Shown in pieces: positions 13,608 to 29,827 of a DNA stretch of 36,683 nucleotides (its first letter is position 1; the number at the start of each line of letters is the position of its first letter). Source of the stretch: a bacterium (lineage in GTDB: Bacteria > AUK180); contig JAUXGM010000002.1 in assembly GCA_030622125.1 (NCBI GenBank), forward strand, positions 1-36,683. The letters run 5' to 3'. The notes under the pieces are model-generated. The model was not told the DNA's origin and did not search any database. It saw only the letters and a program-made list of their open reading frames with translations. The position numbers and the translations under genes are program-made.

Positions 13608-13619
13608 TTTATCTATAAT

Positions 13620-13648
13620 ATGATAATCTATCAACAGGTTTTTGTCAA
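13620..13648 (-). promoter_or_regulatory. Sigma70-type promoter (TTGACA-17bp-TATCAT)
   Basis: Minus-strand TTGACA at 13648-13643 and TATCAT at 13625-13620. Confidence 0.6.
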
Positions 13649-13667
13649 GAATTGTATTTGACTGATG

Positions 13668-13717
13668 ACTGGTGCTTTTTCCGTATTCCCTTATTACCTT
13701 ATTTCCTTATTTCCGTG
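13668..13717. repeat. Octamer tandem repeat (5 degenerate units) preceded by ACTGGTGCTTTT
   Basis: tttccgta-ttccctta-ttacctta-tttcctta-tttccgtg at 13678-13717; the flanking 12-mer is identical to 9845-9856. Confidence 0.7.
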
Positions 13718-15236
13718 TTTTCTGGTGTTCTCGCAATAATTGCTTAAACAATATTGGATTGGTTTTCTTTAAGATATTCATTTCTGAAAGAAAACTGTTT
13801 TTGTATGAAAAATTATTTTTCCCCTGGATCATTTTAACCATTTCTTTCATCGTCATCTCATAATTGTAAATATCACCGTTTTCCCTATAAATCATTGCTT
13901 CAAAAAGTTCCGGTCCAATATTATACCTGTTTTTTCTATACTTTTTGGAACGTTTTATCGTTTGAAAAGCTAAATTTTTCTTTCCGTTATTGTATTCTAT
14001 CTCGGCAATCTGGATGAACTTCCCCGTAAAACCATATTGATATGAAAACGGTTTCGGAATGATATGTAATAATAAAAAAAAGAGGGAAAAGATAAGAAAA
14101 TTTTTCTTATTTACTTTAAACAGAGATGTAAAAAGTATCGGAACGATAAGTAAAAGCAATTTATATCTCATTGAAAGGAAAAATGGGAGGATTGATATTA
14201 CCAAAAATAATTCAAGAAGGTAAAATTTGAGATGCCTTTTTCTTGCGTTTAAGAGTACAATAAAAAAGATTGAAAAAATAAATGCAAAACCCGGAAGAAA
14301 AAAGAGAAATTTCAGCCGATCCTTTATAAAATAATAGTTAAGATTAAGCGGTGGAGAGTATTCGGATATGGAAAGGTAAAATTTTTTCAAATAAAGAAAA
14401 AATCCTTTTATCGGATGGTAAAAAAGAAAATGGAGTCCTTTTTTAACAAAAAGATGACTTTTTAATTGGTTCAGATTCTCCATATCAGAGGAAAATCCTA
14501 TTATTGGAGTAAATCCGCCGTTACTTGCCTTATTGTTGCCTATAAAAAAGTTAATACCCCCTTGTGAAGAGGTAAGAACGAATCTCTTTTCTATGATAAG
14601 ATTTTTTAAAAAAAAGGGAAAAATTATAATTATTATTCCTAATAGTAACGGTAAGAACCGCTTTTTTCGCAGGATTAAATAAAGAATATAGAGAAATATT
14701 ACGATCAAAAGATTTCCCCGTCCGAGAAAAGAAAGACCCAGGAAAATACCTCCTAATAATGGCTTTCTCTCATTATATAATAAAAATAACAAAAAAAATG
14801 TAATAACAATGATCTCAGGGAGCGGGTAATTTGAGTAAATGATAAATGGAACTGATAATGCATATATTAAAGCCGGAATGATAGGTTTTCCTTTTTCAAA
14901 ATTCTTTTTTGAAATAGAAAAAATAAGATAGATATTCAAAAGATCAAGTCCTATCAAAAAAACTTTTGCGATAATAGAAGCATCAGAAAATAGCGAAAAC
15001 GGAAGACAGAATAGAACACCTAACGGATTTACATAAATCGGAAATTGAAATGAGCGTGCATATTCTATATAATATCTTACATCTAAAGAAGCGGAATAGT
15101 TCCAAAAATAGGGCAGTTTTTTACTAACAATAAAAAAAAGTGCCCTTAAAATGAATCCCAAAAGTAATACTGATATTATCTCATAGCGGGATTTTGAAAG
15201 AGTGTGTATCCATTTTTTTGATAGATTTTTTTCCAA
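13707..15236 (-). CDS. GT-C membrane glycosyltransferase (PMT/ArnT-like)
   Basis: LD..YY loop after TM1, GLSFLGRGN, TSSQGGINFFIGNN, FF..RY motif, polytopic, TPR-like C-terminal helices. Confidence 0.75.
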   Translation of the reverse strand: MEKNLSKKWIHTLSKSRYEIISVLLLGFILRALFFIVSKKLPYFWNYSASLDVRYYIEYARSFQFPIYVNPLGVLFCLPFSLFSDASIIAKVFLIGLDLLNIYLIFSISKKNFEKGKPIIPALIYALSVPFIIYSNYPLPEIIVITFFLLFLLYNERKPLLGGIFLGLSFLGRGNLLIVIFLYILYLILRKKRFLPLLLGIIIIIFPFFLKNLIIEKRFVLTSSQGGINFFIGNNKASNGGFTPIIGFSSDMENLNQLKSHLFVKKGLHFLFYHPIKGFFLYLKKFYLSISEYSPPLNLNYYFIKDRLKFLFFLPGFAFIFSIFFIVLLNARKRHLKFYLLELFLVISILPFFLSMRYKLLLLIVPILFTSLFKVNKKNFLIFSLFFLLLHIIPKPFSYQYGFTGKFIQIAEIEYNNGKKNLAFQTIKRSKKYRKNRYNIGPELFEAMIYRENGDIYNYEMTMKEMVKMIQGKNNFSYKNSFLSEMNILKKTNPILFKQLLREHQKTRK

Positions 15237-16642
15237 TTTCCAAACTCCAATCGGCTTTTAACCGATGTAAATACTGATTTCGCGGAAGGATTATCCAATA
15301 GGTAATCTTTGATAAATAAAAATTTTGTTTTCATTAAAAGATTGGAATTTTTTTCTTCCGATACAAATGTATTTATACTGATTACATTCCCTTTTATAAG
15401 TCCGTATATACTGGGGTCCGTAATAACAACTTGATCTACGATCCTCTCATTTATAAAATCGGCGATCTCTGCAAGAAAATAGTTCGGATTGTAAAAAAGA
15501 ATTATCGAATCAAATCTTTTTTTCTCCCTCCACGATGAAAGACTCAGAAATTTACTTGGATGTGTTTTAAGCAGCAACTTTAAAAAATCGTCAAACAGTA
15601 AATATTTATATCCGGCACTTTTTCCATTTTCAATCACACTATCGAATTCCTTCCAATTATCTTTCTTTAAAAAAGCAAGTTCTCTGGAAATTATAGTTGG
15701 TTCCTTTAATTCCGGCAGATCTTTGATATCTTGAAAATTAACTGATGGAAACGGCAATTTGATGTACCTTCTTTTTGAGTAATCGAATTGATATTTGAGA
15801 TGAAAATTATTAACAAAACCACCGACAAGATTAAATACGGCAAGGACCAAGAAAAGACAGTAAACCCATTTTTTATGATCGAATCTATAAAAACCGTAAA
15901 GTAAAATGAAAAATGAGAGAGAAAAAGGCAGTTCATAAGAATTATTAAGAAAAAACAATATAAATGAGAGTAAAAACAAAATTAAAAGTGATTTCAAATT
16001 TTTGTTCTCAATGAATATTAAAATAAACAAAAGCGGAATAAATATCCCCGTTAGATAAAGTGACTGTAATTTTAATAATGAAAGATCAAAAAAAAGATTC
16101 TTATAAAATATTCCGATAAATACTATATTTAATCCTGCACCGATAATCTTATATATTTTGTTTGCTCTTATAAATAGCAAAAAAAATGGTAAAAATGGAG
16201 AAATGAATGGAGAGAAAACAGCTATAATTCCCCGCACATATTTATTTTTAATAATATCAAAAAGAAAAAAGAAAAGGATACCCAGATGAACAGGGGAGAA
16301 GACCTTTATATACTGATTGATCTGAGGGATTGAAAGGATCACGGCAAGAAAAATAAGTGGTTTTACAGGGTTTTTCTTTTTAAAATACAACAAAAAAAAG
16401 ATGGCAATCAATGATAAAAGTGATAATATTCTCAGCGAATAGAATGAAAAGAAGATCGCGAATAATTTTACCAAAAGAAAATAGAAAAAAGAAAAAGGAA
16501 AAGCAATTTTAAATGAAATGGAAAGAGAAACTCCTTCGGTTGGTGTTATTCCCGGATGTGAAAACCAAAAGATAAGATGAAATATAATCATTAATAAAGA
16601 TAAAGCGATCGCAATTTTTTCTATTATTTGTTTTTTATCCAT
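15176..16642 (-). CDS. Polytopic membrane protein, possibly a divergent GT-C
   Basis: About 9-10 TMs followed by a soluble C-terminal domain; acidic residue in loop 1 (PTEG); LRILS motif; position between GT-C genes. Confidence 0.55.
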   Translation of the reverse strand: MDKKQIIEKIAIALSLLMIIFHLIFWFSHPGITPTEGVSLSISFKIAFPFSFFYFLLVKLFAIFFSFYSLRILSLLSLIAIFFLLYFKKKNPVKPLIFLAVILSIPQINQYIKVFSPVHLGILFFFLFDIIKNKYVRGIIAVFSPFISPFLPFFLLFIRANKIYKIIGAGLNIVFIGIFYKNLFFDLSLLKLQSLYLTGIFIPLLFILIFIENKNLKSLLILFLLSFILFFLNNSYELPFSLSFFILLYGFYRFDHKKWVYCLFLVLAVFNLVGGFVNNFHLKYQFDYSKRRYIKLPFPSVNFQDIKDLPELKEPTIISRELAFLKKDNWKEFDSVIENGKSAGYKYLLFDDFLKLLLKTHPSKFLSLSSWREKKRFDSIILFYNPNYFLAEIADFINERIVDQVVITDPSIYGLIKGNVISINTFVSEEKNSNLLMKTKFLFIKDYLLDNPSAKSVFTSVKSRLEFGNWKKIYQKNGYTLFQNPAMR

Positions 16643-18012
16643 ATATTATACCTCATTCTTTCTCCTATATATGCCCATTCATTCTCAACAAGATATTTTT
16701 TTATATTCTTACCGCCCGGATATTGAGAAAATGATCTTAATATCACTATTTCAATATTATATTTTTTAAAGATCTCTTGGATCTTATTGCCCTGTGCGAC
16801 ATCAATGTAATCAAAAAGTTTCTCTTTGTTGAGATTTATTCCATAGATAAATACCTTTCTTTTCAATTTATAACTTAAAAAACCACCGAGAGAGTAATCA
16901 TTAAAAATGTTTCCCTTTAGATTCAATTCATAAAAAAGTGATCCTATCTTTCCGTCATAAAATTTTGAAATCCCAATTCCCGGATCAACATTTAATCGAT
17001 AGTAGGGGGAAAAAATATTTATTGTATATAGGATAATTAACATTATTATGAGTCCGTATCTTTTTATTTTAGTTGCATTTTTTAAGAATCTATCAATTAC
17101 AAAGATCAGAGATATACCGAAGAACGGAATAAATCTTCTCGCAAATAAGACAGCAATTCCTAAAAATAGAGGGAGAATTATTGTTCTATCCTTTTTATCA
17201 AAATGAAAAATGATCTGAAAAAGGAAAATCATACCAAAAAAGAGAAATAGTATCTTTACAAAGGTTGGTAGAGGTCTGACATTAGAAAAAAGAGGCAGCC
17301 ATTCTCCGATCATAACAGTAAAATCCTTGTTAATAAATGAATTCAAATACTGTTCAATATTTCTAAAAGACGATGGATTAAGCAGTAAGGCAATTATGAT
17401 AATGATTAATTCAAATATCCTGTTCTTATCAAATTTTTTTTCAAAAATAAGCTCTGAAATCAAAATAGAAAGGGGAAAAAATAAGAGAAGCAAGACACCC
17501 TGATGTAACTGATTCCAAACAAGTGTCGTAAAAAAAAGGTATATAAATCTCTTTTTACCGGACAATTTTGTGAATATGTAGTATGAAAATGTAAAAAAGA
17601 ACAGGGAAAATATTTCAGGTTTTGCAAAGATACGGATAGAAATAAGTAGCAATATCAAAGGAAAAACCAAATAGTGAAGATTTAATTTTTTTCTAATAAT
17701 ATAAAAAATAAGAAATAAAACAAGTATTTTTAGTAAAAAGATGCCGATTGCTCCGGAAATTAAATAGATAATATAAAGAATTATATCGGATAAAAAAGAT
17801 TGAAAATAGGGCTTGCCGGGTAATGCGAAAGAAAAAGGATCAAACTTTGGAAAACCATTTTGTAAAAAATATCTTCCATAATCAATATGCCACCAAAAAT
17901 CCGGTGAAACGATCTTAAAAAAAGAAACAGAGAAAATAGTAAACATAGAAAAAATAAGATCCGAGTACTTTTTGAAAAAATTAACCATCTTTCTGCCAAT
18001 AGATATCTTCAT
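16624..18012 (-). CDS. GT-C-like membrane protein (D.WWH...G family)
   Basis: PDFWWHIDYGRY..DPFSF, KPEIFS, WNQLHQG, IGEWLP, RRFIPFF, IFNDYSLGGFL. Alternative start ATG 17988. Confidence 0.7.
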   Translation of the reverse strand: MKISIGRKMVNFFKKYSDLIFSMFTIFSVSFFKIVSPDFWWHIDYGRYFLQNGFPKFDPFSFALPGKPYFQSFLSDIILYIIYLISGAIGIFLLKILVLFLIFYIIRKKLNLHYLVFPLILLLISIRIFAKPEIFSLFFFTFSYYIFTKLSGKKRFIYLFFTTLVWNQLHQGVLLLLFFPLSILISELIFEKKFDKNRIFELIIIIIALLLNPSSFRNIEQYLNSFINKDFTVMIGEWLPLFSNVRPLPTFVKILFLFFGMIFLFQIIFHFDKKDRTIILPLFLGIAVLFARRFIPFFGISLIFVIDRFLKNATKIKRYGLIIMLIILYTINIFSPYYRLNVDPGIGISKFYDGKIGSLFYELNLKGNIFNDYSLGGFLSYKLKRKVFIYGINLNKEKLFDYIDVAQGNKIQEIFKKYNIEIVILRSFSQYPGGKNIKKYLVENEWAYIGERMRYNIWIKNK

Positions 18013-18646
18013 CCACTATTCTAAAAACATTTAATGTTTTTCCCTTTCCCTTAACATTAAGTTTATCATAGTAAACTACCATTCCATACGGAACAATGAG
18101 TTTATTTAAATCCGATTTAAATACAACATCGGGAATAAATGGAAGTATGATCTCATTTTCTCGTGCTTCCTTTTGTAGCCGCGCTGCAACATTAACAGGA
18201 TCCCCGATCACTGAAACTTCTTTACTTTTATCGTCTAAGGAAGAAAATCCCATAAAAACATCTCCCATCCATATACCTGTGGAAACCCTCAGCGGGATCT
18301 TTAAATTTCTTCCTAATACCGTTATGTAAGTAGCAATCTTAAGACTGCTTGAAATTGCTTTAATAAGATATTGCTTGTTGTCAATATTATATTTATTTGA
18401 AAAGATCGCCCCGTAGAGAGCCATTATCCCATCGCCCAAGAATTTATCTATAACACCGTCATAAGAATAGATAACATCCGATGCATGCGCATAAAATTTG
18501 TTTAATATTTTAATAACCTTATCCTCACTTTGATTATTTATTGCTTTGTCCACCATTTTTGTGAATCCGCAAAGATCGACAAAGCTTATTATTACATTAT
18601 CGCCATGGATAAAATCAACTATTTCAAATTTTTTTTTGTTATTCAC
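17981..18646 (-). CDS. Stand-alone class III adenylate/guanylate cyclase catalytic domain
   Basis: FVDLCGFT and DKFLGDG (metal-binding Asp pair; Lys typical of ATP specificity), VIGDPVNVAARLQ (Asn/Arg), VKGK. Confidence 0.92.
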   Translation of the reverse strand: MNNKKKFEIVDFIHGDNVIISFVDLCGFTKMVDKAINNQSEDKVIKILNKFYAHASDVIYSYDGVIDKFLGDGIMALYGAIFSNKYNIDNKQYLIKAISSSLKIATYITVLGRNLKIPLRVSTGIWMGDVFMGFSSLDDKSKEVSVIGDPVNVAARLQKEARENEIILPFIPDVVFKSDLNKLIVPYGMVVYYDKLNVKGKGKTLNVFRIVDEDIYWQKDG

Positions 18647-19434
18647 TTTAAAAAGGAGAGGATCAGTCCGGTAAAATATAATTGATTCAGTTCTTCTTTT
18701 TTAATTTCTCTTTGAACGAATCTTCCGAGTATCCAAACAAAAAATTTATCCTTTCTTTTTAAAGGATACATTACAAGATATTCCTGTAAATTTAAGGATT
18801 TTACCGATCTATAAAGGGTAACAATATTTCCCTCATCCAATAAAGTCAGGGTTTTTTCATCTATCTCAGGGATCTTATCATAAAAAGAGGTAGAGATATC
18901 CGTCCTTCTTAATTTATTATTTTTACCAATCTCGGCAAGAAGAAAATTTTCAATATTGAAACGATAGACAATGTTTTTTAAATTTTTCCAGAATTTTTCA
19001 CCATCATTAAATTGAAGATAGGGCGATAGCACCCTGTAAAAAATTTGAAGATAATCTTCGTGTTGCTCTGCTTCTTTTAAAAGGGTTACTCGGACACTAT
19101 CTTTATCTACATAAGAAAAAAGATTGTATTTTCTTTGAAAAATATCCTCCTCACCTTCAAAATAGATAAAAACATTTTTTCCGATCTTCACCCTATCGGA
19201 GGGATGCAGTCGTTTAAGACGATACCTGATATTGTTAATAAAAAGCCCATTATGTGAATTATTATCAATGATATATAGATCGCCTTTATGATCAAAAAAT
19301 GTTGTGTGAAGCTTTGAAACATAACTATCATTTATAGTAATATCATTATCAACCGCTCTTCCTATTGTTACTCCATTTTTTAATGGATAACAATTGCCTT
19401 CAAGTTTTCCGGATGTTGCATATATAAGTTTCAT
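18643..19434 (-). CDS. FHA-domain protein with a possible degenerate GAF-like C-terminal domain
   Basis: TIGR..NDI, VSKLH, SHNGLFIN and DRVKIG are the FHA phosphothreonine-binding residues; the C-terminal YLVMYPL..FFVWIL...EELNQL pattern is GAF-like. Confidence 0.8.
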   Translation of the reverse strand: MKLIYATSGKLEGNCYPLKNGVTIGRAVDNDITINDSYVSKLHTTFFDHKGDLYIIDNNSHNGLFINNIRYRLKRLHPSDRVKIGKNVFIYFEGEEDIFQRKYNLFSYVDKDSVRVTLLKEAEQHEDYLQIFYRVLSPYLQFNDGEKFWKNLKNIVYRFNIENFLLAEIGKNNKLRRTDISTSFYDKIPEIDEKTLTLLDEGNIVTLYRSVKSLNLQEYLVMYPLKRKDKFFVWILGRFVQREIKKEELNQLYFTGLILSFLK

Positions 19435-20285
19435 CTTATGCTCTCCATATATTTTTTTAGTTTTTTATCCATTTTAGTTCCTATAATTACATCTTCTAAT
19501 CCAAATTCCTCATTATTCGGTTTATCGTGAAATCCGATCTGCCAAAATAATTTTCCGTCTTCAGGCAGGGTTAAGATCTTTATTTTATCTTTTGCTTTCG
19601 GTATTTCACCTTTTTTGATCTTATCAAGATGGTAGATGTATTTTATTTTTTTTATTTTATATTCTTTTATTTTATCATCTATTTCAGGATAATCGGTTAT
19701 TAAAAATACCTGATCGTATTTTTTAATAAGTAGTTTCAATTCCTTCAAAGAATTTTCCAATGAAAGCAAATTGATATCGGCATAATAGTTCGGTAGGTTT
19801 GTATGTCCCGTAATAGAAATAAAAATAAATTTCTCCCCGTTTATATTTCTTTCGATATAGGGATGAAACAATCTCTTGCCATTCTTGGCAAGAAGAGTAA
19901 ATGATGAAAAAAGAAGAGTGGAACCATCTATCTCCTGTGAATAAAATTTCGGAAGCTCTTTATAATCATACGCAGTTACAAAATAAGCGTCATAACCCAT
20001 AAATTCCATCAATCTCAAGAGTTTCACTCTTCCTATCTGTAAAGAAGAGATGGAATTACCGCCATCAAAGATAAATGTTTCGTTAGATATATTCCTGATC
20101 TTATTGATCAGATAACTCCTTTCAAATATTCGTCCTCTCTTTACCTTACAGACGCAATGTTCAATAAATCCTCCTGTATTTCCGGTAAAAATTATAGAGT
20201 AATTATAGATTATTTTTTGTTTATTGCAATTTAAAAATGCAAAAATTAGAAAAATAAGAAGAAAAAATTTGTAAAATTTTAACAT
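19431..20285 (-). CDS. UshA/5'-nucleotidase-like N-terminal-domain lipoprotein with a CxC motif
   Basis: Lipobox FLN-C; IIFTGNTGGFIEHCVC...GRIFER, FDGGN, MGYDA, HPYIER..NG. Confidence 0.65.
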   Translation of the reverse strand: MLKFYKFFLLIFLIFAFLNCNKQKIIYNYSIIFTGNTGGFIEHCVCKVKRGRIFERSYLINKIRNISNETFIFDGGNSISSLQIGRVKLLRLMEFMGYDAYFVTAYDYKELPKFYSQEIDGSTLLFSSFTLLAKNGKRLFHPYIERNINGEKFIFISITGHTNLPNYYADINLLSLENSLKELKLLIKKYDQVFLITDYPEIDDKIKEYKIKKIKYIYHLDKIKKGEIPKAKDKIKILTLPEDGKLFWQIGFHDKPNNEEFGLEDVIIGTKMDKKLKKYMESIR

Positions 20286-20287
20286 TT

Positions 20288-20302
20288 TGTTATAATATTA
20301 TA
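20288..20302. promoter_or_regulatory. Bidirectional -10 palindrome TATAATATTATA between divergent genes
   Basis: Perfect 12-bp palindrome at 20291-20302 in a 20-bp intergenic gap; the plus-strand copy is an extended -10 (TGT-TATAAT). Confidence 0.55.
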
Positions 20303-20305
20303 TAA

Positions 20306-23300
20306 ATGTTTGCAAAAAAATTCAAGTCTTTATTGTTTTTTTTGTTTTTCTCCATTACTATCTTTATTCAAAGTGCTGTTATTGAGGAATCTCCCGATCA
20401 GATAAATCCATTTTTGGAATCACCGAAGACAGTATTGGTAGAAAAGAAAAAAAGACCGTTTTTAAAAAGAAAGAAATCATTTCTTCCCAAACCGGCATTC
20501 ATACTTAAAGGCGGGAAAGGAGGGCTGCTTCCGGAACTTGAAATATCGGCGATCAAAAGTAATATCTCATTGAGTATCTTTAAAAATCTCTCTTTTTCCT
20601 TTTCAAATAAGGTTTATCCCAATGACCCGAATAGAGCAGCAACGTATCAGCCGAATTTAAATCAAAGTATGAAATTAAATCTGAAAGGAATAGTTGGTGA
20701 CAGATTGAATATATTGATCAAATACGACGATACGCAAAAAACATTTAATATAGATCAAAATATTTCTTTAAAATATATCGGCAAGAAGGATGAGATATTG
20801 AGTTATTTGGAAGCGGGGAATATCAATCTTTCCCTTCCGAATACACAATTCGTTTCATACAATAAAAATTTCTTTGGAATAAAAGGAAAACTTATATTTG
20901 AAGATATTCCGATAATCCCAGGAAAATTACAATTATTTCCGATCATAGGTGTATCCGAAAATAAAACAATATCTGCGACCTATAGCGGAAATACATCAAA
21001 TACAAAGAAAACCATATCCGACTGCGGATACGCAAAGAACAGTGTCTTTGTTCTTTATAGAAATGTACCGGAAGGAACTCATTCCAAATATGCTTATAAC
21101 GATCTTATCAATAATTTTTTGGGTGACTACAAGGTTATAGGGAATTCCGAGGTTATCTATTATGACAACCGTATTGGCACAGATAATACCGAGGCAACGG
21201 TAGCAGCAGGACCCAAACAGGGAGAAACGCAGATATGGAATTTTGATCAGCTTTTGCGAGGAACGGATTATTATATAGATACGGTCAGTGGGCTGCTTTA
21301 TTTGCAAAAAAGTATTAAGGACAACGGGCTCTTGATCGGAGCTTTTCAGGTCCAGAACAATACAACCGCTGAAATAATTGATATAGGAAATAATTTAACA
21401 CCCTTTATTGATGATAATGATTCCGGTTTTTTTGATGATGATCCTGCTCCCGGTATGGATAATGATAATGATGGGGATACCCGCGAGGATACTATTGACG
21501 GAATTGACAATGACGGCGACGGGCAGATAGATGAAGACCCCGATGATATCTGGATCGATGGCGGTTCTGCTCAAACAGGAACCGATCCCTATCAAAGCGG
21601 ATATATCTTTTTAAAGGCGGAGCAGAACCGTTATATGGGGAATGCCCTTGTAAATGTTTATAAAACAGGCATTACCGGAATATCTCCCGGTGATGTTACG
21701 GTCAATATAATAAATAAGAATGATCCTGATGGTGATAATGATCCGACGGTATTTACAACCTCTTCCGGAAAGAAAATATCGTATCTTGCTATATTCGGAC
21801 TTGATATGGAGCCGATTGACGGGAGAATAGATATAAGATTTCTTGATACGGATAACGGCTATCTGATATTTTCGGATGCGACTCCTTTTGATCTTACGGA
21901 TAACGATACTTCTTCAAGTAGTTATTTTGAGAAACTTAGACTTGAAAAGGGACTTGATGATACCGACATAAATGAAATTATAGAAAAATGTTCAAATAAA
22001 TATATATACGCAGTAAATGATTCTTTAATCGATCCATTTAATATCTCTCAAACAAAGTTTGACATTTCATTGGAATATGCGGCACCGCAAAAAAGCTATA
22101 ATCTTCATTGGGATATTAAAGAGGGTTCGGAGGTTGTCAAGGTGGACGGTATTATAACACGCCGCGGCACGGATTATACGATTGACTATAATACGGGAAA
22201 TTTGACATTTATAAATGAAGAGATATTAAGAGGGAATGCAAAGGTGGAGATCGCTTATGAATATGTTCCTTTCGGGGTAACAGAACAAAAATATGTATTG
22301 GGAAATCGGTTTGAATGGAATGTAAGCAAGAATTTTTTCATCGGTTCCACTATAATAAGTGAAAGATTCTTAAAGAAACAGACCGAGATACCGCAACCGG
22401 GAAATGAGCCGGAAAGTAAATTTGTATTTGATGTTGACGGTTCTCTTAATATTACAAAGGACTTTCTGAAAAGGACACTATTTTCTCTTCCCATATTAAA
22501 AAAATCCGAACCTTACGATATCAAATTATCGGGTGAATACGCATATTCATACAACAACCCCAATACATATAAGAAGACCGCAATTGAAACAATGGAGGCA
22601 ACAAAGACCACAGAAAGCCCGAGCACATCCTATAAATTATGGAATCTTTCATCAAAACCCGCCGTTCTTTCTTCTGCTGATACAAGGGCAAAGACAACTA
22701 AGATTCAATTTAAGGATATCGATGATTTTAATAATTTCGGTGAATTCGGATTTTATTCCTGTAAGGATGATGATAGTCATCCCTATACGCCATCGGAAGA
22801 GGAGGGTCTGCAGTCCGGTCATATTGAGGACTCCTTATTCTTTAAATTATCGAAAGGAAATAGCTGGGCTGGTATTCAAAATGTATTTTCCACGAATTTT
22901 ATAGATATGTCACGGAAAACCTCACTTGATTTTTGGATTAAAAATCTAAAAAGCCTTCCGAAAAATGCAATTATTCACATCGATATCGGATTGATCTCGG
23001 AAGATAGTGACGGAGATATTTTTCTTGATACGGAGGATACGAACAGTAACGGTAGTTTAAATCTTGATGAGGACACGGGAATTACATTTGATTACGATAC
23101 CGCTACAACATCTATATTGGGAAAGGATGACGGTAGTTTACAAAGTGAGGACCTTGATAAAGATGGACTTTTAGATACCGCCGAGAGATATTATACATAT
23201 ACATCGGATATCTTAAATTCTATTTCGGAAGGGGATGGATGGCAATTCGTTTCGATACCTCTAAATCTTGAAAATGATGAAAAGCAGGGAAATCCTTCCC

Positions 23301-25606
23301 CAAACAATGTCAAATATGTTAGAATATGGATTGAAAACTTGGCGGTCAACGATCTATACTTTAAGATACAAAATTTTTCACTGTCGGGAAATAATTGGGA
23401 AAAGGGGATCGTTGAAAATGGCATTGCTCCCGAATATCTCTCCATATCGGCAATATCAATGGATGACCCCAATTTCAGCCGATTTTTTGATAGCGATGAA
23501 AAGAGCGATAGAGAAGCACTATGTTTGGATTTTCTTATAGATGGAACAGCAGCAAACACAAAGACGGCATATACAAAATTAGTAAGCCAGCGAGGTATAA
23601 ATATATCCAACTACAATAATGTGGAGATATCAACATTGGGGTATGAAATGCCGCAGGATACAGCAGTATATACACTTTATCTTAAGATGGGAATAGATGA
23701 GAACAACTATTGGAGGATACCGCTTTCAATAAAAAAAGGAGTTGATATTTCACAATGGGTTGTAAATAAGATGAATATAAAAAATATTGCTCAATACGAA
23801 AAGACAGGTAATCCCTCTCTATTAAATGTAAAATATCTATCGTTGGAGATAATAACCGGTAGTTCGATACAGGGAAAATTCTTTATAAACAATATTATCT
23901 TAACGGATCCGGATATTCTCAAAGATAGTGCATACAGAGCATCTATCTCAACTACCTTACCCGGGATTGGTCCAATTTCCGTTAATTATAGTAATGTCGG
24001 CGGACGGTTCAGTGCGCTCGGAAGTAGTAGGACAGGTTCAAATGTAAGGGGGTTCGCTTCAAGTTTAACCGTAAATACATTAAAATGGCTGCCCGTCAGT
24101 TTAGGATACACAAATACCACCTCTACATTAAGGGATATCCTTCAACTCTCTCAATCATCTTCAAATTATCAAACAAAAAATGAGAGTTTTAGAATGTCTA
24201 CAAGTTTAAATTTAGGACGATATATATGGAAATATTTACCGTCCATTTCATATTCGTATTCAAATGGAACAAATGCGGGATACGCATTGGAAGATAATCA
24301 CTCAGTAGAAAGATCAAAGAGTATAAATGAGGTTCATACCATTTCCTTGAAATTAACAAGGCTTCTTTTTTTATTGGAGAATCTTAATATAAGCAGTGGT
24401 AAAAATGTAAATTTAAGTAAATACAACAAACATTATGACTCGACAAAGGAAAACAGTTCAACGATCAGAAATAATATATCTCTCAATTTTAAAATTCGGT
24501 TTTTTAATATTCAAAATTCATTTCTATACAATAACAGTATCCTGAACGGATTTAAACAAAATGATGCCCTTACATACAATTTGTCAACGAATATATCTAT
24601 CTTGAAATCGGTCATTGAACCGAGAATTTCTCTTAAGGCATCACTTGGCAGGCTCTATTATAAAGATACTCTTTCGGAAGATGTTGACGCTACCAATGTT
24701 AAATTCGGCACAACTGCTTCGATTACCAATAGATTATCATTGCGGTCGCTTTTACGAAATCTTCACCTCCTTTCACTGAATACGATCAACCTGAATGGAT
24801 CTTATACAAAAACCAATTCATCCAATATTACAGCTTATGAAGGTATATTCCCTATTAAAAACAGTCTGGATATTCTTCGGAAAAAATTTGATAAGGAGAT
24901 CTATGCCAATCTTACCGATCAACAGAAAATAAACATTTCCCTCAGCTATATCCCTATTAGCTTTATGAATTTTTCGGGATCGTATAATTATCTAATTATG
25001 GATACGGTCATATCGGGAACGGAGGTTGTCGATACAACACACACAATAAGCTCCAATCTTACCTTGACAAAACTTGATAAATTATTCAAATTCTTAAAAA
25101 AGACATCGCTTTTAATTGGTTTTCAATATTCTCTGAATGAAAAATCCGGATCGGATTATATTACAGAAACATATACTCCATCCCTTTCATTCCCGATAAA
25201 TTTTTCACCAAAATTAAATCAGTCATTTCGTCTATCCTATTCTAAAAAGGTAAATACTCGCTTTGATATAGATAAAACCACTTCAAATACATTGACATTT
25301 TCTTCCAATTGGAATTATCGGTTGGATCTTAAATATGGAATAAAATTACCGTTTTTAAAGAACAAGATCAAGGCAAGTAGTCCTATAAACACAAAATTAG
25401 GAATTTCTTACTCAATATTAAGAAGTGATCAAATAAATACAACCGAATCCAATAGTTTGAATGTAAACGGAGGATTTGATTATAGATTTTCAAAGAACTT
25501 TGTTTTCAACTCAAATCTTTCATATTCCCTCTATAAGAATATAACGGAAAGAAGATTGGATTATAGAGAATTTAAGTTTACAATAGGGGGGAATATTGTT
25601 TTTTAA
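20306..25606 (+). CDS. sprA: SprA/Sov-like large outer-membrane beta-barrel protein (type IX secretion translocon homolog)
   Basis: Signal peptide; SprA-like blocks MKLNLKGIVGDRLNILIKYD, LKYIGKKDEILSYLEAGNINLSLP..FFGIK, GSEVVKVDG..RGTDYTIDYNTG, LGNRFEW..FFIGST, IDIGLISED, GNPSLLNVK..GKFFINNIILTD; amphipathic C-terminal strands ending in Phe. Confidence 0.75.
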   Translation: MFAKKFKSLLFFLFFSITIFIQSAVIEESPDQINPFLESPKTVLVEKKKRPFLKRKKSFLPKPAFILKGGKGGLLPELEISAIKSNISLSIFKNLSFSFSNKVYPNDPNRAATYQPNLNQSMKLNLKGIVGDRLNILIKYDDTQKTFNIDQNISLKYIGKKDEILSYLEAGNINLSLPNTQFVSYNKNFFGIKGKLIFEDIPIIPGKLQLFPIIGVSENKTISATYSGNTSNTKKTISDCGYAKNSVFVLYRNVPEGTHSKYAYNDLINNFLGDYKVIGNSEVIYYDNRIGTDNTEATVAAGPKQGETQIWNFDQLLRGTDYYIDTVSGLLYLQKSIKDNGLLIGAFQVQNNTTAEIIDIGNNLTPFIDDNDSGFFDDDPAPGMDNDNDGDTREDTIDGIDNDGDGQIDEDPDDIWIDGGSAQTGTDPYQSGYIFLKAEQNRYMGNALVNVYKTGITGISPGDVTVNIINKNDPDGDNDPTVFTTSSGKKISYLAIFGLDMEPIDGRIDIRFLDTDNGYLIFSDATPFDLTDNDTSSSSYFEKLRLEKGLDDTDINEIIEKCSNKYIYAVNDSLIDPFNISQTKFDISLEYAAPQKSYNLHWDIKEGSEVVKVDGIITRRGTDYTIDYNTGNLTFINEEILRGNAKVEIAYEYVPFGVTEQKYVLGNRFEWNVSKNFFIGSTIISERFLKKQTEIPQPGNEPESKFVFDVDGSLNITKDFLKRTLFSLPILKKSEPYDIKLSGEYAYSYNNPNTYKKTAIETMEATKTTESPSTSYKLWNLSSKPAVLSSADTRAKTTKIQFKDIDDFNNFGEFGFYSCKDDDSHPYTPSEEEGLQSGHIEDSLFFKLSKGNSWAGIQNVFSTNFIDMSRKTSLDFWIKNLKSLPKNAIIHIDIGLISEDSDGDIFLDTEDTNSNGSLNLDEDTGITFDYDTATTSILGKDDGSLQSEDLDKDGLLDTAERYYTYTSDILNSISEGDGWQFVSIPLNLENDEKQGNPSPNNVKYVRIWIENLAVNDLYFKIQNFSLSGNNWEKGIVENGIAPEYLSISAISMDDPNFSRFFDSDEKSDREALCLDFLIDGTAANTKTAYTKLVSQRGINISNYNNVEISTLGYEMPQDTAVYTLYLKMGIDENNYWRIPLSIKKGVDISQWVVNKMNIKNIAQYEKTGNPSLLNVKYLSLEIITGSSIQGKFFINNIILTDPDILKDSAYRASISTTLPGIGPISVNYSNVGGRFSALGSSRTGSNVRGFASSLTVNTLKWLPVSLGYTNTTSTLRDILQLSQSSSNYQTKNESFRMSTSLNLGRYIWKYLPSISYSYSNGTNAGYALEDNHSVERSKSINEVHTISLKLTRLLFLLENLNISSGKNVNLSKYNKHYDSTKENSSTIRNNISLNFKIRFFNIQNSFLYNNSILNGFKQNDALTYNLSTNISILKSVIEPRISLKASLGRLYYKDTLSEDVDATNVKFGTTASITNRLSLRSLLRNLHLLSLNTINLNGSYTKTNSSNITAYEGIFPIKNSLDILRKKFDKEIYANLTDQQKINISLSYIPISFMNFSGSYNYLIMDTVISGTEVVDTTHTISSNLTLTKLDKLFKFLKKTSLLIGFQYSLNEKSGSDYITETYTPSLSFPINFSPKLNQSFRLSYSKKVNTRFDIDKTTSNTLTFSSNWNYRLDLKYGIKLPFLKNKIKASSPINTKLGISYSILRSDQINTTESNSLNVNGGFDYRFSKNFVFNSNLSYSLYKNITERRLDYREFKFTIGGNIVF

Positions 25607-28450: not shown

Positions 28451-29827
28451 ATGATAAAAATTGTGGGTGTTAATCCTATTTATTCAAGTGAAGAGATATT
28501 AGAAATAGATAAAGTAGGTATCACTTTAAAAAATACAGACAAAAAAGGTACCGATGCAACGATTATTCTTGTTATCAGAGAGAAAAACGGACAGGATGTA
28601 TTAACACAGGATTTTGATTTATTTTTGGCTTCAAATAAGGTTAATGAATTTATTATTCCACTGGATATTCCCATCAATAGTAATTGGTCATGTGAAATCC
28701 GAATAATGATCCAGGTAAGTGGTAAGATCGTCGCCGAAAGTGAGTGGTATGATCTGATCCAGGGAGAGGAAACCGAAAAAGAGGAAGAAACAAAGCCATA
28801 TACGAGTGAGTTTTTAAAAGAAGAAGATACCGAAACCGAACTGGCAGCAGATGTAACTCCGGAGAGCTCCGAAAAAGAAGATTCTAAAAAAAGTTTTGAT
28901 GAGAAAGAGGATACCGAGGTTACAATTGTCGAGGATGAAAAAGAAAAAAAAATAACGTCATCATGGGGTATTTTGATTGAAGATGGTAAAAATGCAACTT
29001 TCGGGATAGAAGTAGAAAGTGATATAGTTCCGGAAGAGGAAGAAAAGATAGAGGATAGAGGCTCGAGGTTAGAGGTTAGTGAAGAAAAAGAAAAGAAAAA
29101 AGAGGATAGAGGCAATAAAAAGACAATGAATAGTGAAGAGTTAATAGTGAATAGTGAAGAGAAAAAAGAAAAAGAGGTTAAAAGCATGCCCAGCACCAAG
29201 ATGGTGCAGGGTGAAAGGTTAACGGTTAGTAAAGAAAAAGAAAAGAAAACAGAGGATAAAGGCTCAAGGTTAGAGGTTAGTGAAGAAAAGAAAAGGAAAA
29301 AAAAGAAAATAGAAATCGCTGAGAAAGTTGAGGAGGAGTTTACACAAACAGAAGCAGAAATTATAGTCAAAGATGCAAGCGAGAATGTTGTTTCGGATTT
29401 GAAACAAGATCAACAAAAGATGTTCCGTCAAAAGAAAAAACGATTTCCGGTTCTATTGATATTGATCTCAATCGTTGTAATCGGTGCTGTTGGGTATTAT
29501 TTTTTTATTGTAAAGGGAATTAAAATTCCATTTATCAACCGTGAAAAAACGGTCGATAAAACAAAAGAAACAGATATTAATGATCTACTTTCAACGGGAA
29601 AAGATGATCTACTGGTCATTGAAAAAAATTATATTGTTGAAACAGAAAAACTATCCGAAGATCAGCTTGGAAAGATAGAAAATCTTATAGAGAAATACAA
29701 TGGAAATCTTTTAGAAGTTGATGGGGGTTATAAAATGACCTTTAATTTCAAAAAGAAGGATAATGCAAATGAATTAAAAACTTTATTAGAGGAAAAAGAA
29801 ATAAAATGTACGATAAAGGAACAGTAA
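28451..29827 (+). CDS. Single-pass membrane protein: N-terminal beta-sandwich-like domain, E/K-rich linker, TM, SPOR-like C-terminus
   Basis: No signal peptide; TM FPVLLILISIVVIGAVGYYFFIV after KKKR; the C-terminus YKMTFNFKKKDNANELKTLLEEKEIKCTIK resembles SPOR. Confidence 0.6.
   Translation: MIKIVGVNPIYSSEEILEIDKVGITLKNTDKKGTDATIILVIREKNGQDVLTQDFDLFLASNKVNEFIIPLDIPINSNWSCEIRIMIQVSGKIVAESEWYDLIQGEETEKEEETKPYTSEFLKEEDTETELAADVTPESSEKEDSKKSFDEKEDTEVTIVEDEKEKKITSSWGILIEDGKNATFGIEVESDIVPEEEEKIEDRGSRLEVSEEKEKKKEDRGNKKTMNSEELIVNSEEKKEKEVKSMPSTKMVQGERLTVSKEKEKKTEDKGSRLEVSEEKKRKKKKIEIAEKVEEEFTQTEAEIIVKDASENVVSDLKQDQQKMFRQKKKRFPVLLILISIVVIGAVGYYFFIVKGIKIPFINREKTVDKTKETDINDLLSTGKDDLLVIEKNYIVETEKLSEDQLGKIENLIEKYNGNLLEVDGGYKMTFNFKKKDNANELKTLLEEKEIKCTIKEQ
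29050..29289 (+). repeat. Heptamer tandem repeats and a 39-bp direct repeat inside the coding linker
   Basis: gaggata-gaggctc-gaggtta-gaggtta at 29051 and again at 29252 (2 mismatches over 39 bp); tgaatag-type x5 at 29127-29161; ggtgcag-ggtgaaa-ggttaac-ggttagt at 29203-29230. Confidence 0.8.

What the first reader, a model, noticed from the sequence alone, without database searches (positions are those of the whole stretch)
20306..25606. Compact SprA-like (type IX secretion) translocon without neighbouring T9SS genes
Seen: a 1766-aa exported protein with several SprA/Sov-like blocks in the expected order and a barrel-type C-terminus ending in Phe. Established: SprA is the very large single-chain beta-barrel translocon of the T9SS, best known from Bacteroidota and usually well over 2000 aa. 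Inference: this copy is several hundred residues shorter, and no porK/L/M/N, porV or CTD cargo genes lie in the window. Flanking genes use Shine-Dalgarno sites and canonical -35/-10 promoters, which are unlike Bacteroidota signals. It may be a minimal or variant T9SS-like exporter in a different, possibly candidate-phylum, lineage.
Basis: partly seen in the sequence, partly recalled or inferred. Interest (0 to 1): 0.8.

Follow-up and report, generated by a model that had tools for sequence, protein, structure and literature searches.

The report
Compact type IX secretion pore
This gene encodes a slimmed-down relative of SprA, the giant outer-membrane pore of the type IX protein secretion system, in an uncultured candidate-phylum bacterium whose genome also holds the pore's cargo and shuttle proteins but no recognisable motor.

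Summary
The ORF at 20306-25606 (+) is real and intact. It encodes 1766 aa with a signal peptide and ends in Phe. It is a true but divergent SprA/Sov homologue. NCBIfam SprA scores 175.5 bits (cut-off 200) and Pfam finds nothing. A profile comparison with Bacteroidota SprA gives probability 100%, E 2.7e-40. Two overlapping AlphaFold models together align residues 82-1766 with solved F. johnsoniae SprA residues 132-2401.

It is about 640 aa shorter than Bacteroidota SprA through many small deletions. This size is not unusual: 45 of 113 homologues are 1707-2199 aa, all those with a source name coming from non-Bacteroidota lineages.

The window holds no other T9SS gene, but the genome does. It has 28 ORFs with a C-terminal T9SS sorting domain and five PorV/PorQ-like barrel genes, each directly downstream of a cargo gene.

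GldK, GldL, GldM and GldN were not detected in any of the 9 genomes of this small candidate phylum. A positive control for GldM worked. They were also undetected in other SprA-bearing lineages, so extreme divergence cannot be excluded.

Verdict: this is the translocon of a T9SS-type pathway in a candidate phylum, with the energising part unidentified. It is a variant shared by many lineages and of moderate interest.

The parts
20306..25606 (+). sprA-like gene: 1766 codons plus stop
   Evidence: ORF list and translation. TIGR04189 scores 175.5 bits. hhalign against Bacteroidota SprA gives probability 100%. Fold matches to solved SprA.
20269..20296 (+). Promoter-like element TTGTAA-16-TATAAT with TG before the second hexamer. 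It ends 10 nt before the ATG, and there is no SD.
   Evidence: Scan and sequence. The same arrangement is conserved in L034-L038. That it functions as a promoter is inferred.
20297..20325 (-). Mirror promoter-like element TTGAAT-17-TATAAT for the divergent lipoprotein gene. Its first hexamer lies inside sprA codons.
   Evidence: Scan. The AAATTCAAG stretch is conserved in all five relatives.
20306..20377 (+). Sec-type signal peptide, about residues 1-24
   Evidence: Basic start followed by a hydrophobic stretch at residues 8-26. The cleavage site was not predicted by any tool.
20378..20557 (+). N-terminal periplasmic segment, residues 25-84. It is lysine-rich, modelled at low confidence, and not alignable to the Bacteroidota N-terminus.
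   Evidence: pLDDT is below 50 for residues 21-83. hhalign starts only at residue 111-113. VIA alignment starts at residue 82.
20558..20956 (+). N-terminal set of about 7 long beta-strands, residues 85-217. It overlaps SprA HMM block 1 (20621-21055).
   Evidence: DSSP of model mbf4cd2f76a3e and the HMM block. Aligned to SprA from residue 132 onward.
21392..21562 (+). Family-specific insert of 57 residues, rich in Asp (residues 363-419)
   Evidence: A gap in the Bacteroidota profile. pLDDT is below 50. It is conserved within the four-member family.
21650..22756 (+). Best-conserved SprA block (model positions 456-817). It includes four long strands at residues 661-751.
   Evidence: DSSP.
22559..23905 (+). 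Cap region, residues 752-1200. It has a jelly-roll (CBM11-like) domain and Asp-rich DxDxDG-like loops.
   Evidence: VIA gives Z 15.0, rmsd 2.5-2.6 over 146-152 residues to CBM11 chains. It is aligned with the SprA cap part. 'Cap' is inferred from the F. johnsoniae structure description (PMC10994853, passages).
23918..25597 (+). C-terminal run of about 26 long beta-strands, residues 1205-1764
   Evidence: DSSP of model mc41e1fcdbf68. Aligned up to SprA residue 2401. hhalign matches 1587-1734 to 2182-2372.
25574..25603 (+). C-terminal strand ending ...GGNIVF, a beta-signal-like end
   Evidence: Sequence. The alignment consensus of 44 compact homologues ends IxF. 37 of 113 homologues end in F. 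Recognition by BAM is inferred.
19431..20285 (-). Divergent neighbour: a 284-aa lipoprotein-like protein resembling UshA. It is the first gene of a cluster that stays next to sprA in relatives. Its role is unknown, and it is not shown to belong to the secretion system.
   Evidence: NCBIfam NF041198 at 42.6 bits, cut-off 275. Synteny in L034-L038. Sequence.

Best explanation
The gene encodes the outer-membrane translocon of a type IX-type secretion pathway. It is a divergent, compact orthologue of SprA/Sov.

Shown: it has a signal peptide. It is homologous to Bacteroidota SprA over nearly its whole length. Its predicted fold matches solved SprA from the first barrel strands to the last. The genome encodes many proteins with the T9SS type A C-terminal sorting domain, together with PorV/PorQ-family barrels.

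Inferred from work on F. johnsoniae: the protein is exported by Sec and inserted by BAM as one very large beta-barrel of about 36 strands with an extracellular cap. Sec-exported cargo enters the barrel from the periplasm. The cargo's C-terminal domain is bound inside the barrel together with loops of a PorV-type carrier sitting at a lateral opening. Cargo then leaves sideways with the carrier. Five cargo genes have their own PorV/PorQ-like gene directly downstream, which suggests dedicated carrier or anchor pairs.

Not identified: what powers the step. No GldL/GldM motor or GldK/GldN ring was detectable.
For: Homology:
- TIGR04189 gives E 1e-51, 175.5 bits.
- A family profile against PDB SprA chains 6h3i/6h3j gives E 2e-24.
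- hhalign against 12 Bacteroidota SprA gives probability 100%, E 2.7e-40, over 1045 columns. A colinear C-terminal match follows.

Fold:
- Model of residues 567-1766: pLDDT 77.1. The four best Foldseek hits are SprA chains at E 3.2e-46 to 1.4e-33; the next hit is at 2e-6.
- VIA gives Z 17.6-19.0 with 1006-1041 residues aligned up to SprA residue 2401.
- Model of residues 1-1200: pLDDT 72.5, Z 17.1-19.3, with 792-942 residues aligned from SprA residue 132.
- About 37-39 long strands were counted over the two models.

Conservation:
- 9 of 9 genomes of the phylum have a match. The ORFs are 1764-1794 aa in the six genomes where the gene is whole.
- Relatives are 50-53% identical over the full length and syntenic.

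Context:
- 25 Por_Secre_tail matches in G000, 24 of them marked over the cut-off, two only when summed with neighbouring matches.
- 28 ORFs carry the domain at or within 7 residues of their C-terminus by an HMM built from 24 of them.
- 7-33 such matches occur in each of the 9 phylum genomes.
- PorV/PorQ family NF033709 scores 100.5, 113.2 and 95.6 bits (cut-off 90), and 38.9 and 37.5 bits for two more. All five genes lie directly after a cargo gene.
Against: - The whole-protein score is below the curated NCBIfam cut-off (175.5 against 200), and Pfam SprA_N does not match.
- The barrel was never modelled closed, because the tool takes at most 1200 residues.
- VIA Z for SprA (19) is only a little above that of unrelated barrels (16.6). 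Those align about 250 residues, against about 1000 for SprA.
- GldL, GldM and GldN gave no match in G000. GldK gave only a weak FGE-sulfatase match.
- PorU-type C25 peptidase is absent from G000 and found in 4 of 9 phylum genomes.
- The PorV equivalog model stays far under its cut-off.
- There are no expression or protein data. All transport steps are inferred from another phylum.
Confidence: 0.85

Rival explanations
1. It is the translocon of an otherwise complete, canonical T9SS. The GldK/L/M/N, PorU and other parts would be present but too divergent for the Bacteroidota-trained models, or would lie in the unassembled 4% of the genome. Nothing would then be minimal about the system.
For: - The models were built on Bacteroidota.
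- 47 of 101 sampled genomes have an SprA match, 24 of them over the cut-off. None of the 101 has GldM, and none has GldK over the cut-off.
- Pfam GldM_1st is also silent in five genomes with SprA matches (four summing over the cut-off), including a complete one-contig genome. A blanket failure of this kind fits a sensitivity limit.
- C25 peptidase is present in 4 of 9 genomes of the phylum.
- G000 is in 192 contigs.
Against: - The search pipeline works where the gene is canonical. GldM was found in 2 of 401 genomes at 265 and 394 bits. The operon in one of them scores well above all four cut-offs.
- 0 of 9 genomes of the phylum match GldM or GldN even at E 0.1. Six of these are at least 90% complete and two are in only 40 contigs.
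- phmmer with the four real proteins finds nothing credible in G000, and neither does an HMM built from the GldM hits (those over 480 aa, at most 120).
- No adjacent pair of a two-helix protein followed by a single-helix protein resembles gldL-gldM. The only such pair is NfeD/SPFH-like, named from recall.
Confidence: 0.45
2. It is an SprA-fold barrel with a different job, such as a general large-solute or polymer channel, and does not serve the CTD-bearing proteins.
For: No genetic linkage to any T9SS gene in the window. The conserved neighbours are a phosphoesterase-like lipoprotein, an FHA protein, a cyclase-like protein and GT-C-like membrane proteins.
Against: - SprA, CTD cargo and PorV/PorQ-like genes co-occur in 9 of 9 genomes of the phylum.
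- No other SprA-like gene exists in G000 to serve 28 cargo proteins; both matches lie in this one ORF.
- The cap and the barrel both align with SprA.
Confidence: 0.07
3. It is a decaying remnant or a binning contaminant, not a working gene of this organism.
For: The genome is a fragmented metagenome assembly of 192 contigs. The score is below the family cut-off.
Against: - The 5.3-kb frame is uninterrupted.
- Orthologues of the same length are present in all six genomes where the gene is whole.
- 50-53% identity with the gene order kept on the upstream side, and a conserved promoter-like element.
- GC of the gene (0.33-0.36) is within the range of the window (0.28-0.36).
- Estimated contamination is 0.68%.
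Confidence: 0.03

Closest known systems
SprA of Flavobacterium johnsoniae (PDB 6h3i, 6h3j, 8gl6, 8gl8), the T9SS translocon
   Same: Colinear homology and fold from the first barrel strands to the C-terminus: P0001 residues 82-1766 align with SprA 132-2401. Both have a signal peptide and a giant all-beta architecture with a jelly-roll-containing middle part. Both co-occur with type A CTD cargo and PorV-family barrels.
   Different: - 1766 aa against 2403 aa.
- The differences are many small deletions: 15-72 aa each in the aligned part, and about 260 aa in the poorly aligned stretch 1275-1586.
- It has an Asp-rich insert of its own, 57 aa long.
- The N-terminal segment, which in F. johnsoniae folds inside SkpA (PMC10994853, passages), has no recognisable counterpart.
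- Only 12-18% identity in structural alignments.
- No detectable GldKLMN in the genome.
Sov of Porphyromonas gingivalis (name and role recalled and seen in abstracts listed)
   Same: Same family as SprA; the outer-membrane pore for CTD proteins.
   Different: Not compared directly here, since no Sov sequence was fetched. In P. gingivalis the system includes PorK/L/M/N, PorU, PorV, PorQ and PorZ (abstract of PMC12365241). Here only the PorV/PorQ family was found.
Compact SprA homologues of other non-Bacteroidota lineages (Endomicrobium proavitum P0006 1770 aa, Elusimicrobia P0032 1800 aa, Zixibacteria P0015 1962 aa, Fermentibacteria P0033 1870 aa, Cloacimonetes P0055 2012 aa)
   Same: Same size class and same blocks. 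The window's family groups with the Elusimicrobia/Endomicrobium copies in a FastTree of 44 compact homologues, with local support 100.
   Different: Only 20-28% identical to P0001. The tree had no Bacteroidota outgroup and carried composition warnings. None of these proteins was found described in the papers searched.
PorV/PorQ family (NCBIfam NF033709), and the PorP/SprF genes that sit beside type B CTD cargo genes in Bacteroidota (abstract of PMC9143113)
   Same: Barrels of 298-318 aa encoded directly downstream of a cargo gene. Three are over the NF033709 cut-off.
   Different: - The paired cargo here carries type A-like domains, not type B (TIGR04183 model or the own CTD HMM).
- The PorV, PorQ and PorP equivalog models stay below their cut-offs.
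- One copy is fused to OmpA and SPOR domains, and one to an LpoB/TolB-N-like end.

Membership tests
SprA/Sov family (NCBIfam TIGR04189, Pfam PF14349) | Whole-protein score over the curated NCBIfam cut-off (200 bits) | tested here: not met
   175.5 bits, E 1e-51. Orthologues in 3 of 9 genomes of the phylum reach 211-222 bits when the pieces in one frame are summed.
SprA/Sov family (NCBIfam TIGR04189, Pfam PF14349) | Pfam SprA_N domain over the gathering score | tested here: not met
   No PF14349 match even at E 1. Many of the more distant homologues do carry it.
SprA/Sov family (NCBIfam TIGR04189, Pfam PF14349) | Colinear homology with Bacteroidota SprA along the protein | tested here: met
   hhalign gives probability 100%, E 2.7e-40, for 111-1272 against 194-1602. 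A second colinear match, 1587-1734 against 2182-2372, has E 2.4e-4. PDB SprA gives E 2e-24.
SprA/Sov family (NCBIfam TIGR04189, Pfam PF14349) | Fold of the solved translocon | tested here: met
   Foldseek E 3.2e-46 to 1.4e-33, TM (query) 0.48-0.52. VIA Z 17.1-19.3 with 792-1041 residues aligned in two overlapping models.
SprA/Sov family (NCBIfam TIGR04189, Pfam PF14349) | Single-chain closed barrel of 36 strands with a cap and a lateral opening | tested here: inconclusive
   About 37-39 long strands were counted in two partial models: 7-9, plus 4, plus 26. The full chain could not be folded, so closure, the exact count and the opening were not seen.
SprA/Sov family (NCBIfam TIGR04189, Pfam PF14349) | Exported outer-membrane protein (signal peptide, beta-signal-like end) | tested here: met
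   Sequence features only. No predictor for signal peptides was available.
Type IX secretion system (as defined in Bacteroidota) | Cargo with type A C-terminal sorting domain | tested here: met
   24 of 25 matches are marked over the cut-off in G000. 28 ORFs carry it at or near the C-terminus. It is present in 9 of 9 phylum genomes.
Type IX secretion system (as defined in Bacteroidota) | PorV-type carrier | tested here: inconclusive
   The PorV/PorQ family model is passed by 3 proteins. The PorV equivalog scores at most 31.9 bits in G000 and at most 92.2 bits in relatives, against a cut-off of 250. Pfam PorV gives no match.
Type IX secretion system (as defined in Bacteroidota) | GldL/GldM (PorL/PorM) motor and GldK/GldN (PorK/PorN) ring | tested here: not met
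   No credible match in G000 or in any of the 9 phylum genomes. The same models are silent in other SprA-bearing lineages, so absence is not proven.
Type IX secretion system (as defined in Bacteroidota) | PorU sortase (C25 peptidase) | tested here: not met
   The PorU model hits only C-terminal sorting domains in G000. Peptidase_C25 gives 0 matches in G000 and is present in 4 of 9 phylum genomes.
Type IX secretion system (as defined in Bacteroidota) | SprE/PorW, SkpA, Plug, PorZ, PorT | not tested
Only the CTD part of the PorZ model gave weak matches.
Type IX secretion system (as defined in Bacteroidota) | CTD-dependent export across the outer membrane | not testable with these tools
   Needs experiment.

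The most novel reading that the evidence does not exclude
Outside Bacteroidota, including this candidate phylum and an Elusimicrobia-like clade, the type IX pathway exists as an outer-membrane module only: a compact SprA, PorV/PorQ-type barrels often paired with single cargo genes, and CTD cargo. It would work without the GldLM motor and GldKN ring. Transport would then be driven differently, or not need a dedicated motor, and the motor and ring would be a later addition in Bacteroidota.
Probability: 0.35. Interest if true: 0.75.

Novelty: new variant of a known kind. Interest (0 to 1): 0.45.

Why it matters
In the review and research papers listed in my searches, type IX secretion is described as a Bacteroidota system, at most an FCB one, built around a proton-driven GldLM motor.

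Here a full-length SprA-fold translocon sits with dozens of CTD cargo genes and PorV/PorQ-like barrels. The lineage is a nine-species candidate phylum in which no motor or ring gene can be detected. The same pattern, SprA present but GldM and GldK undetected, holds in many other sampled lineages.

If the absence is real, it bears on how the translocon is energised and on which part of the system is ancestral. If it is only divergence, these genomes are the place to look for the most distant motor homologues.

For annotation, the case shows that curated cut-offs miss true SprA orthologues of the compact class.

Tried and rejected
- Pfam on P0001 gave nothing but a chance-level DUF7070 hit.
Two overlapping parts were folded instead.
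- The weak GldK match at G000 C119:563-1825 was rejected as GldK. Only the FGE-sulfatase half matches. The signal peptide has no lipobox Cys by my reading of the sequence. Nothing resembling gldL/M/N lies in the 560 bases downstream.
- GldL matches at E 0.01-0.1 were rejected as noise. They lie in ORFs of 422-2869 aa, and 5 of 14 unrelated control genomes ring too.
- A heuristic for a gldL-gldM-like adjacent pair found only one pair, which by recall looks like NfeD/SPFH.
- The two ExbB-type motors of G000 look like ordinary TonB/Tol clusters. One lies convergent to a cargo/PorV-like pair, which I do not count as evidence.
- The search for homologous proteins with a real GldM listed only close Chitinophagaceae-like proteins (the best 120 of 7763), so it gave no stepping stones.
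- phmmer of one PorV-like protein against PDB sequences gave 0 matches at E 1.
- A tree with Bacteroidota rows timed out. The tree reported has none.
- phmmer with --max timed out and was rerun with default filters.
- Seven searches of titles, abstracts and full text found no paper describing compact SprA proteins or a T9SS lacking GldKLMN outside Bacteroidota. [quoted passage not shown]
- No paper on this candidate phylum was found beyond a table row for T1SED10-198M in a review (PMC11382960, passage). That row describes a 42% GC genome, so the present GTDB name of the window's phylum is unknown to me.
- Whether the phylum belongs to the FCB group was not resolved.
Full report
WHAT IS THERE. 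The window is contig C58 of a 2.08-Mb metagenome-assembled genome in 192 contigs, estimated 96.1% complete and 0.68% contaminated. GC is about 0.28-0.36 along the window. The ORF at 20306-25606 (+) is intact and encodes 1766 aa. It starts with a basic and then hydrophobic signal-peptide-like stretch and ends in ...GGNIVF.

IS IT SprA? Pfam gives nothing. NCBIfam's SprA equivalog TIGR04189 matches at E 1e-51 and 175.5 bits, which is under the curated 200-bit cut-off. The match comes in two blocks, at model positions 121-256 and 456-817.

A profile of the protein and its three close relatives hits the solved F. johnsoniae SprA (6h3i/6h3j, 2403 aa) at E 2e-24. The stretches are colinear. Profile-profile comparison with 12 Bacteroidota SprA proteins of about 2400 aa gives probability 100%, E 2.7e-40, aligning 111-1272 with 194-1602. 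A greedier run adds a colinear C-terminal match, 1587-1734 with 2182-2372, at E 2.4e-4 and probability 43.6%.

The full chain could not be folded because of the 1200-residue limit. Two overlapping parts were folded instead, each with a 44-row alignment.
- Residues 567-1766 gave mean pLDDT 77.1 and pTM 0.50. Foldseek ranks four SprA chains first at E 3.2e-46 to 1.4e-33, and the next hit is at 2e-6. VIA-align gives Z 17.6-19.0 with 1006-1041 residues aligned up to SprA residue 2401.
- Residues 1-1200 gave mean pLDDT 72.5. VIA-align gives Z 17.1-19.3 with 792-942 residues aligned, starting at SprA residue 132.

The Z values stand only a little above those of unrelated barrels (16.6). Those cover about 250 residues, against about 1000 for SprA.

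Long strands were counted in the DSSP strings: 7-9 at residues 85-238, 4 at 661-751 and 26 at 1205-1764. That makes about 37-39. This is compatible with the 36-strand barrel described for SprA (PMC10994853, passages). It is not a count on a closed barrel.

I conclude that the protein is an SprA-family member by homology and fold, although it fails both curated sequence thresholds.

WHY IT IS SHORT, AND WHETHER THAT IS SPECIAL. The difference from Bacteroidota SprA is spread out.
- About 70 aa are missing at the N-terminus.
- Eight deletions of 15-72 aa lie in the aligned part.
- About 260 aa are missing in the poorly aligned stretch 1275-1586.
- The family has one Asp-rich insert of its own, 57 aa at residues 363-419.

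In F. johnsoniae the N-terminal segment is held inside SkpA (PMC10994853, passages). It has no recognisable counterpart here: alignments start at residue 82-113, and pLDDT is below 50 for residues 21-83.

The size is not unusual. Of 113 homologues found, 45 are 1707-2199 aa and 65 are 2300-2539 aa. The named short ones come from Endomicrobium/Elusimicrobia, Zixibacteria, Fermentibacteria and Cloacimonetes. The named long ones come from Bacteroidota. In a sample of 101 genomes, 47 have an SprA match, 24 of them over the cut-off. ORFs outside the window's phylum run from 1556 to 2364 aa. In a FastTree of 44 compact homologues, the window's family groups with the Elusimicrobia/Endomicrobium copies with local support 100. 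That tree had no Bacteroidota outgroup and carried composition warnings.

THE LINEAGE. The five closest genome records are titled only 'bacterium'. One of them was placed by its authors in the GTDB placeholder phylum T1SED10-198M, earlier UBP7 (supplement of PMC9213671). In the collection searched, the window's phylum has 9 species genomes in two families. All 9 have an SprA match. The ORFs are 1764-1794 aa in the six genomes where the gene is whole. Whether the phylum belongs to the FCB group was not resolved.

Expression signals differ from what I recall for Bacteroidota. SD-like motifs precede 714 of 1490 ORFs, against 234 of 1490 at a control position. A TTGTAA-16-TATAAT element with TG before the second hexamer ends 10 nt before the sprA ATG, and it is conserved in all five relatives. 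Promoter-like hits in general are at chance level in this AT-rich DNA: 30 found against 29.2 +/- 6.4 expected.

CONTEXT IN THE WINDOW. No neighbour matches a T9SS family. On the upstream side a divergent cluster stays next to sprA in the relatives. It holds an UshA-like lipoprotein, an FHA protein and a cyclase-like protein, followed by polytopic GT-C-like membrane proteins. The downstream genes are not conserved in the one relative that has downstream DNA. As far as I recall, sprA also stands apart from other T9SS genes in Bacteroidota. The lack of neighbours therefore carries little weight.

CONTEXT IN THE GENOME. G000 has 25 matches to the type A sorting domain, 24 of them marked over the cut-off. 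An HMM built from 24 of these tails finds 28 ORFs, the 24 seeds plus 4 new ones. In every case the domain lies at or within 7 residues of the C-terminus. Each of the 9 phylum genomes has 7-33 matches at E 1e-5 or better.

Five of the 28 cargo genes are followed within 10 bases, on the same strand, by a gene for a PorV/PorQ-like barrel. Three of these pass the NCBIfam PorV/PorQ family cut-off, at 100.5, 113.2 and 95.6 bits against 90. Two score 38.9 and 37.5 bits. One is fused to OmpA and SPOR domains. The stricter PorV, PorQ and PorP models stay below their cut-offs.

A PorU-type C25 peptidase is absent from G000 and found in 4 of 9 phylum genomes.

THE MISSING MOTOR AND RING. GldL, GldM and GldN give no match in G000. 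GldK gives only a weak FGE-sulfatase match with no gldL/M/N beside it. Across the phylum, GldM and GldN are 0 of 9 even at E 0.1, and GldL shows only noise. Pfam GldM_1st is 0 of 5 in G000 plus four relatives.

The pipeline works where the genes are canonical. GldM is found in 2 of 401 sampled genomes at 265 and 394 bits. The operon in one of them scores 597, 190.7, 394.9 and 179.4 bits for GldK, L, M and N. phmmer with those four proteins finds nothing credible in G000's ORFs, and neither does an HMM built from the GldM hits (those over 480 aa).

There is an important caveat. The same models are silent in the other SprA-bearing lineages too. GldM is 0 of 101 and GldK over the cut-off is 0 of 101, while SprA is 47 of 101. 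GldM_1st is over its cut-off in 0 of 5 genomes with SprA matches, four of which sum over the SprA cut-off. Either a motor-less form is widespread, or the motor and ring diverge beyond sequence detection outside Bacteroidota. I cannot tell which.

HOW IT MOST LIKELY WORKS. Shown: this is an SprA-fold protein, conserved phylum-wide, in genomes rich in CTD cargo and PorV/PorQ-like barrels. Inferred from F. johnsoniae (PMC10994853, passages): cargo exported by Sec enters the barrel from the periplasm. Its CTD binds inside together with loops of a PorV-type carrier at the lateral opening, and the pair leaves sideways. The cargo-barrel gene pairs suggest dedicated carriers or anchors, as described for PorP-like proteins and type B cargo in Bacteroidota (abstract of PMC9143113). 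The energy source is unknown. I put 0.85 on 'T9SS-type translocon', about 0.45 on 'canonical partners present but undetected', and about 0.35 on 'module truly without GldKLMN'.

VERDICT. The identification as SprA-like is right. The candidate-phylum guess is supported. The weight put on compactness and on the empty neighbourhood is not justified, because both are common. What remains of interest is system-level and is shared with many lineages: SprA, PorV-like barrels and CTD cargo with no detectable motor or ring. Seven literature searches found no description of this. Supplements of other papers were not examined.

Noticed in passing
window 20269-20325, and L034-L038 at the start of the sprA match: The 20-bp gap between the divergent start codons (20285 on the minus strand, 20306 on the plus strand) carries two overlapping promoter-like elements facing each other. 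Each ends about 10 nt before its ATG, and neither gene has an SD. The plus-strand element and the AAATTCAAG stretch are conserved in all five relatives, although the proteins are only about 50% identical. Both genes look leaderless.
   Followed up: partly
window 10224-20285: A cluster of an UshA-like lipoprotein, an FHA protein and a class III cyclase-like protein, followed by five polytopic membrane proteins (462, 488, 509, 511 and 632 aa; two match PMT_2 or TMEM260-like glycosyltransferase families). Parts of it stay next to sprA in the relatives. No link to secretion was shown.
   Followed up: partly
G000 C166:475-2457 (locus L065): A PorV/PorQ-family barrel (95.6 bits) is fused to an OmpA peptidoglycan-binding domain and a SPOR domain. 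It is encoded directly after a CTD cargo gene.
   Followed up: partly
G000 C62:2952-5939, C47:1-2116, C162:3932-6288, C166:1-2457, C68:1-3197: Five cargo genes with type A-like sorting domains (by TIGR04183 or my own CTD HMM) are each followed within 10 bases by a PorV/PorQ-like barrel gene. One of the cargoes is an S8 subtilase.
   Followed up: yes
alignment A3 (44 compact SprA homologues): In the SprA gene tree the window's family is sister to the Elusimicrobia/Endomicrobium copies (1770-1890 aa). Elusimicrobia is not usually counted in the FCB group (recalled). Low-GC composition could be pulling the two groups together.
   Followed up: partly
G000 C68:3233-7823: An ExbB-ExbD-ExbD-TonB-like cluster with a 791-aa outer-membrane receptor-like gene lies convergent to a cargo/PorV-like pair. 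This is probably coincidence.
   Followed up: no
G000, many short contigs (for example C137, C140, C51, C9, C166, C47, C28, C32, C185): Contigs often begin inside a gene that ends with the sorting domain, so the assembly seems to break in or near the cargo genes. The cargo count is therefore a lower bound.
   Followed up: no
window 28451-29827: A 458-aa protein with a long Glu/Lys-rich low-complexity middle part and one membrane-helix-like stretch at residues 336-354. It has no family match.
   Followed up: no
sample of 101 genomes around the window's phylum: SprA matches occur in 47 of 101 genomes. GldM matches occur in 0 of 101, and GldK over the cut-off in 0 of 101. The mismatch is general and not a property of this genome alone.
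   Followed up: partly
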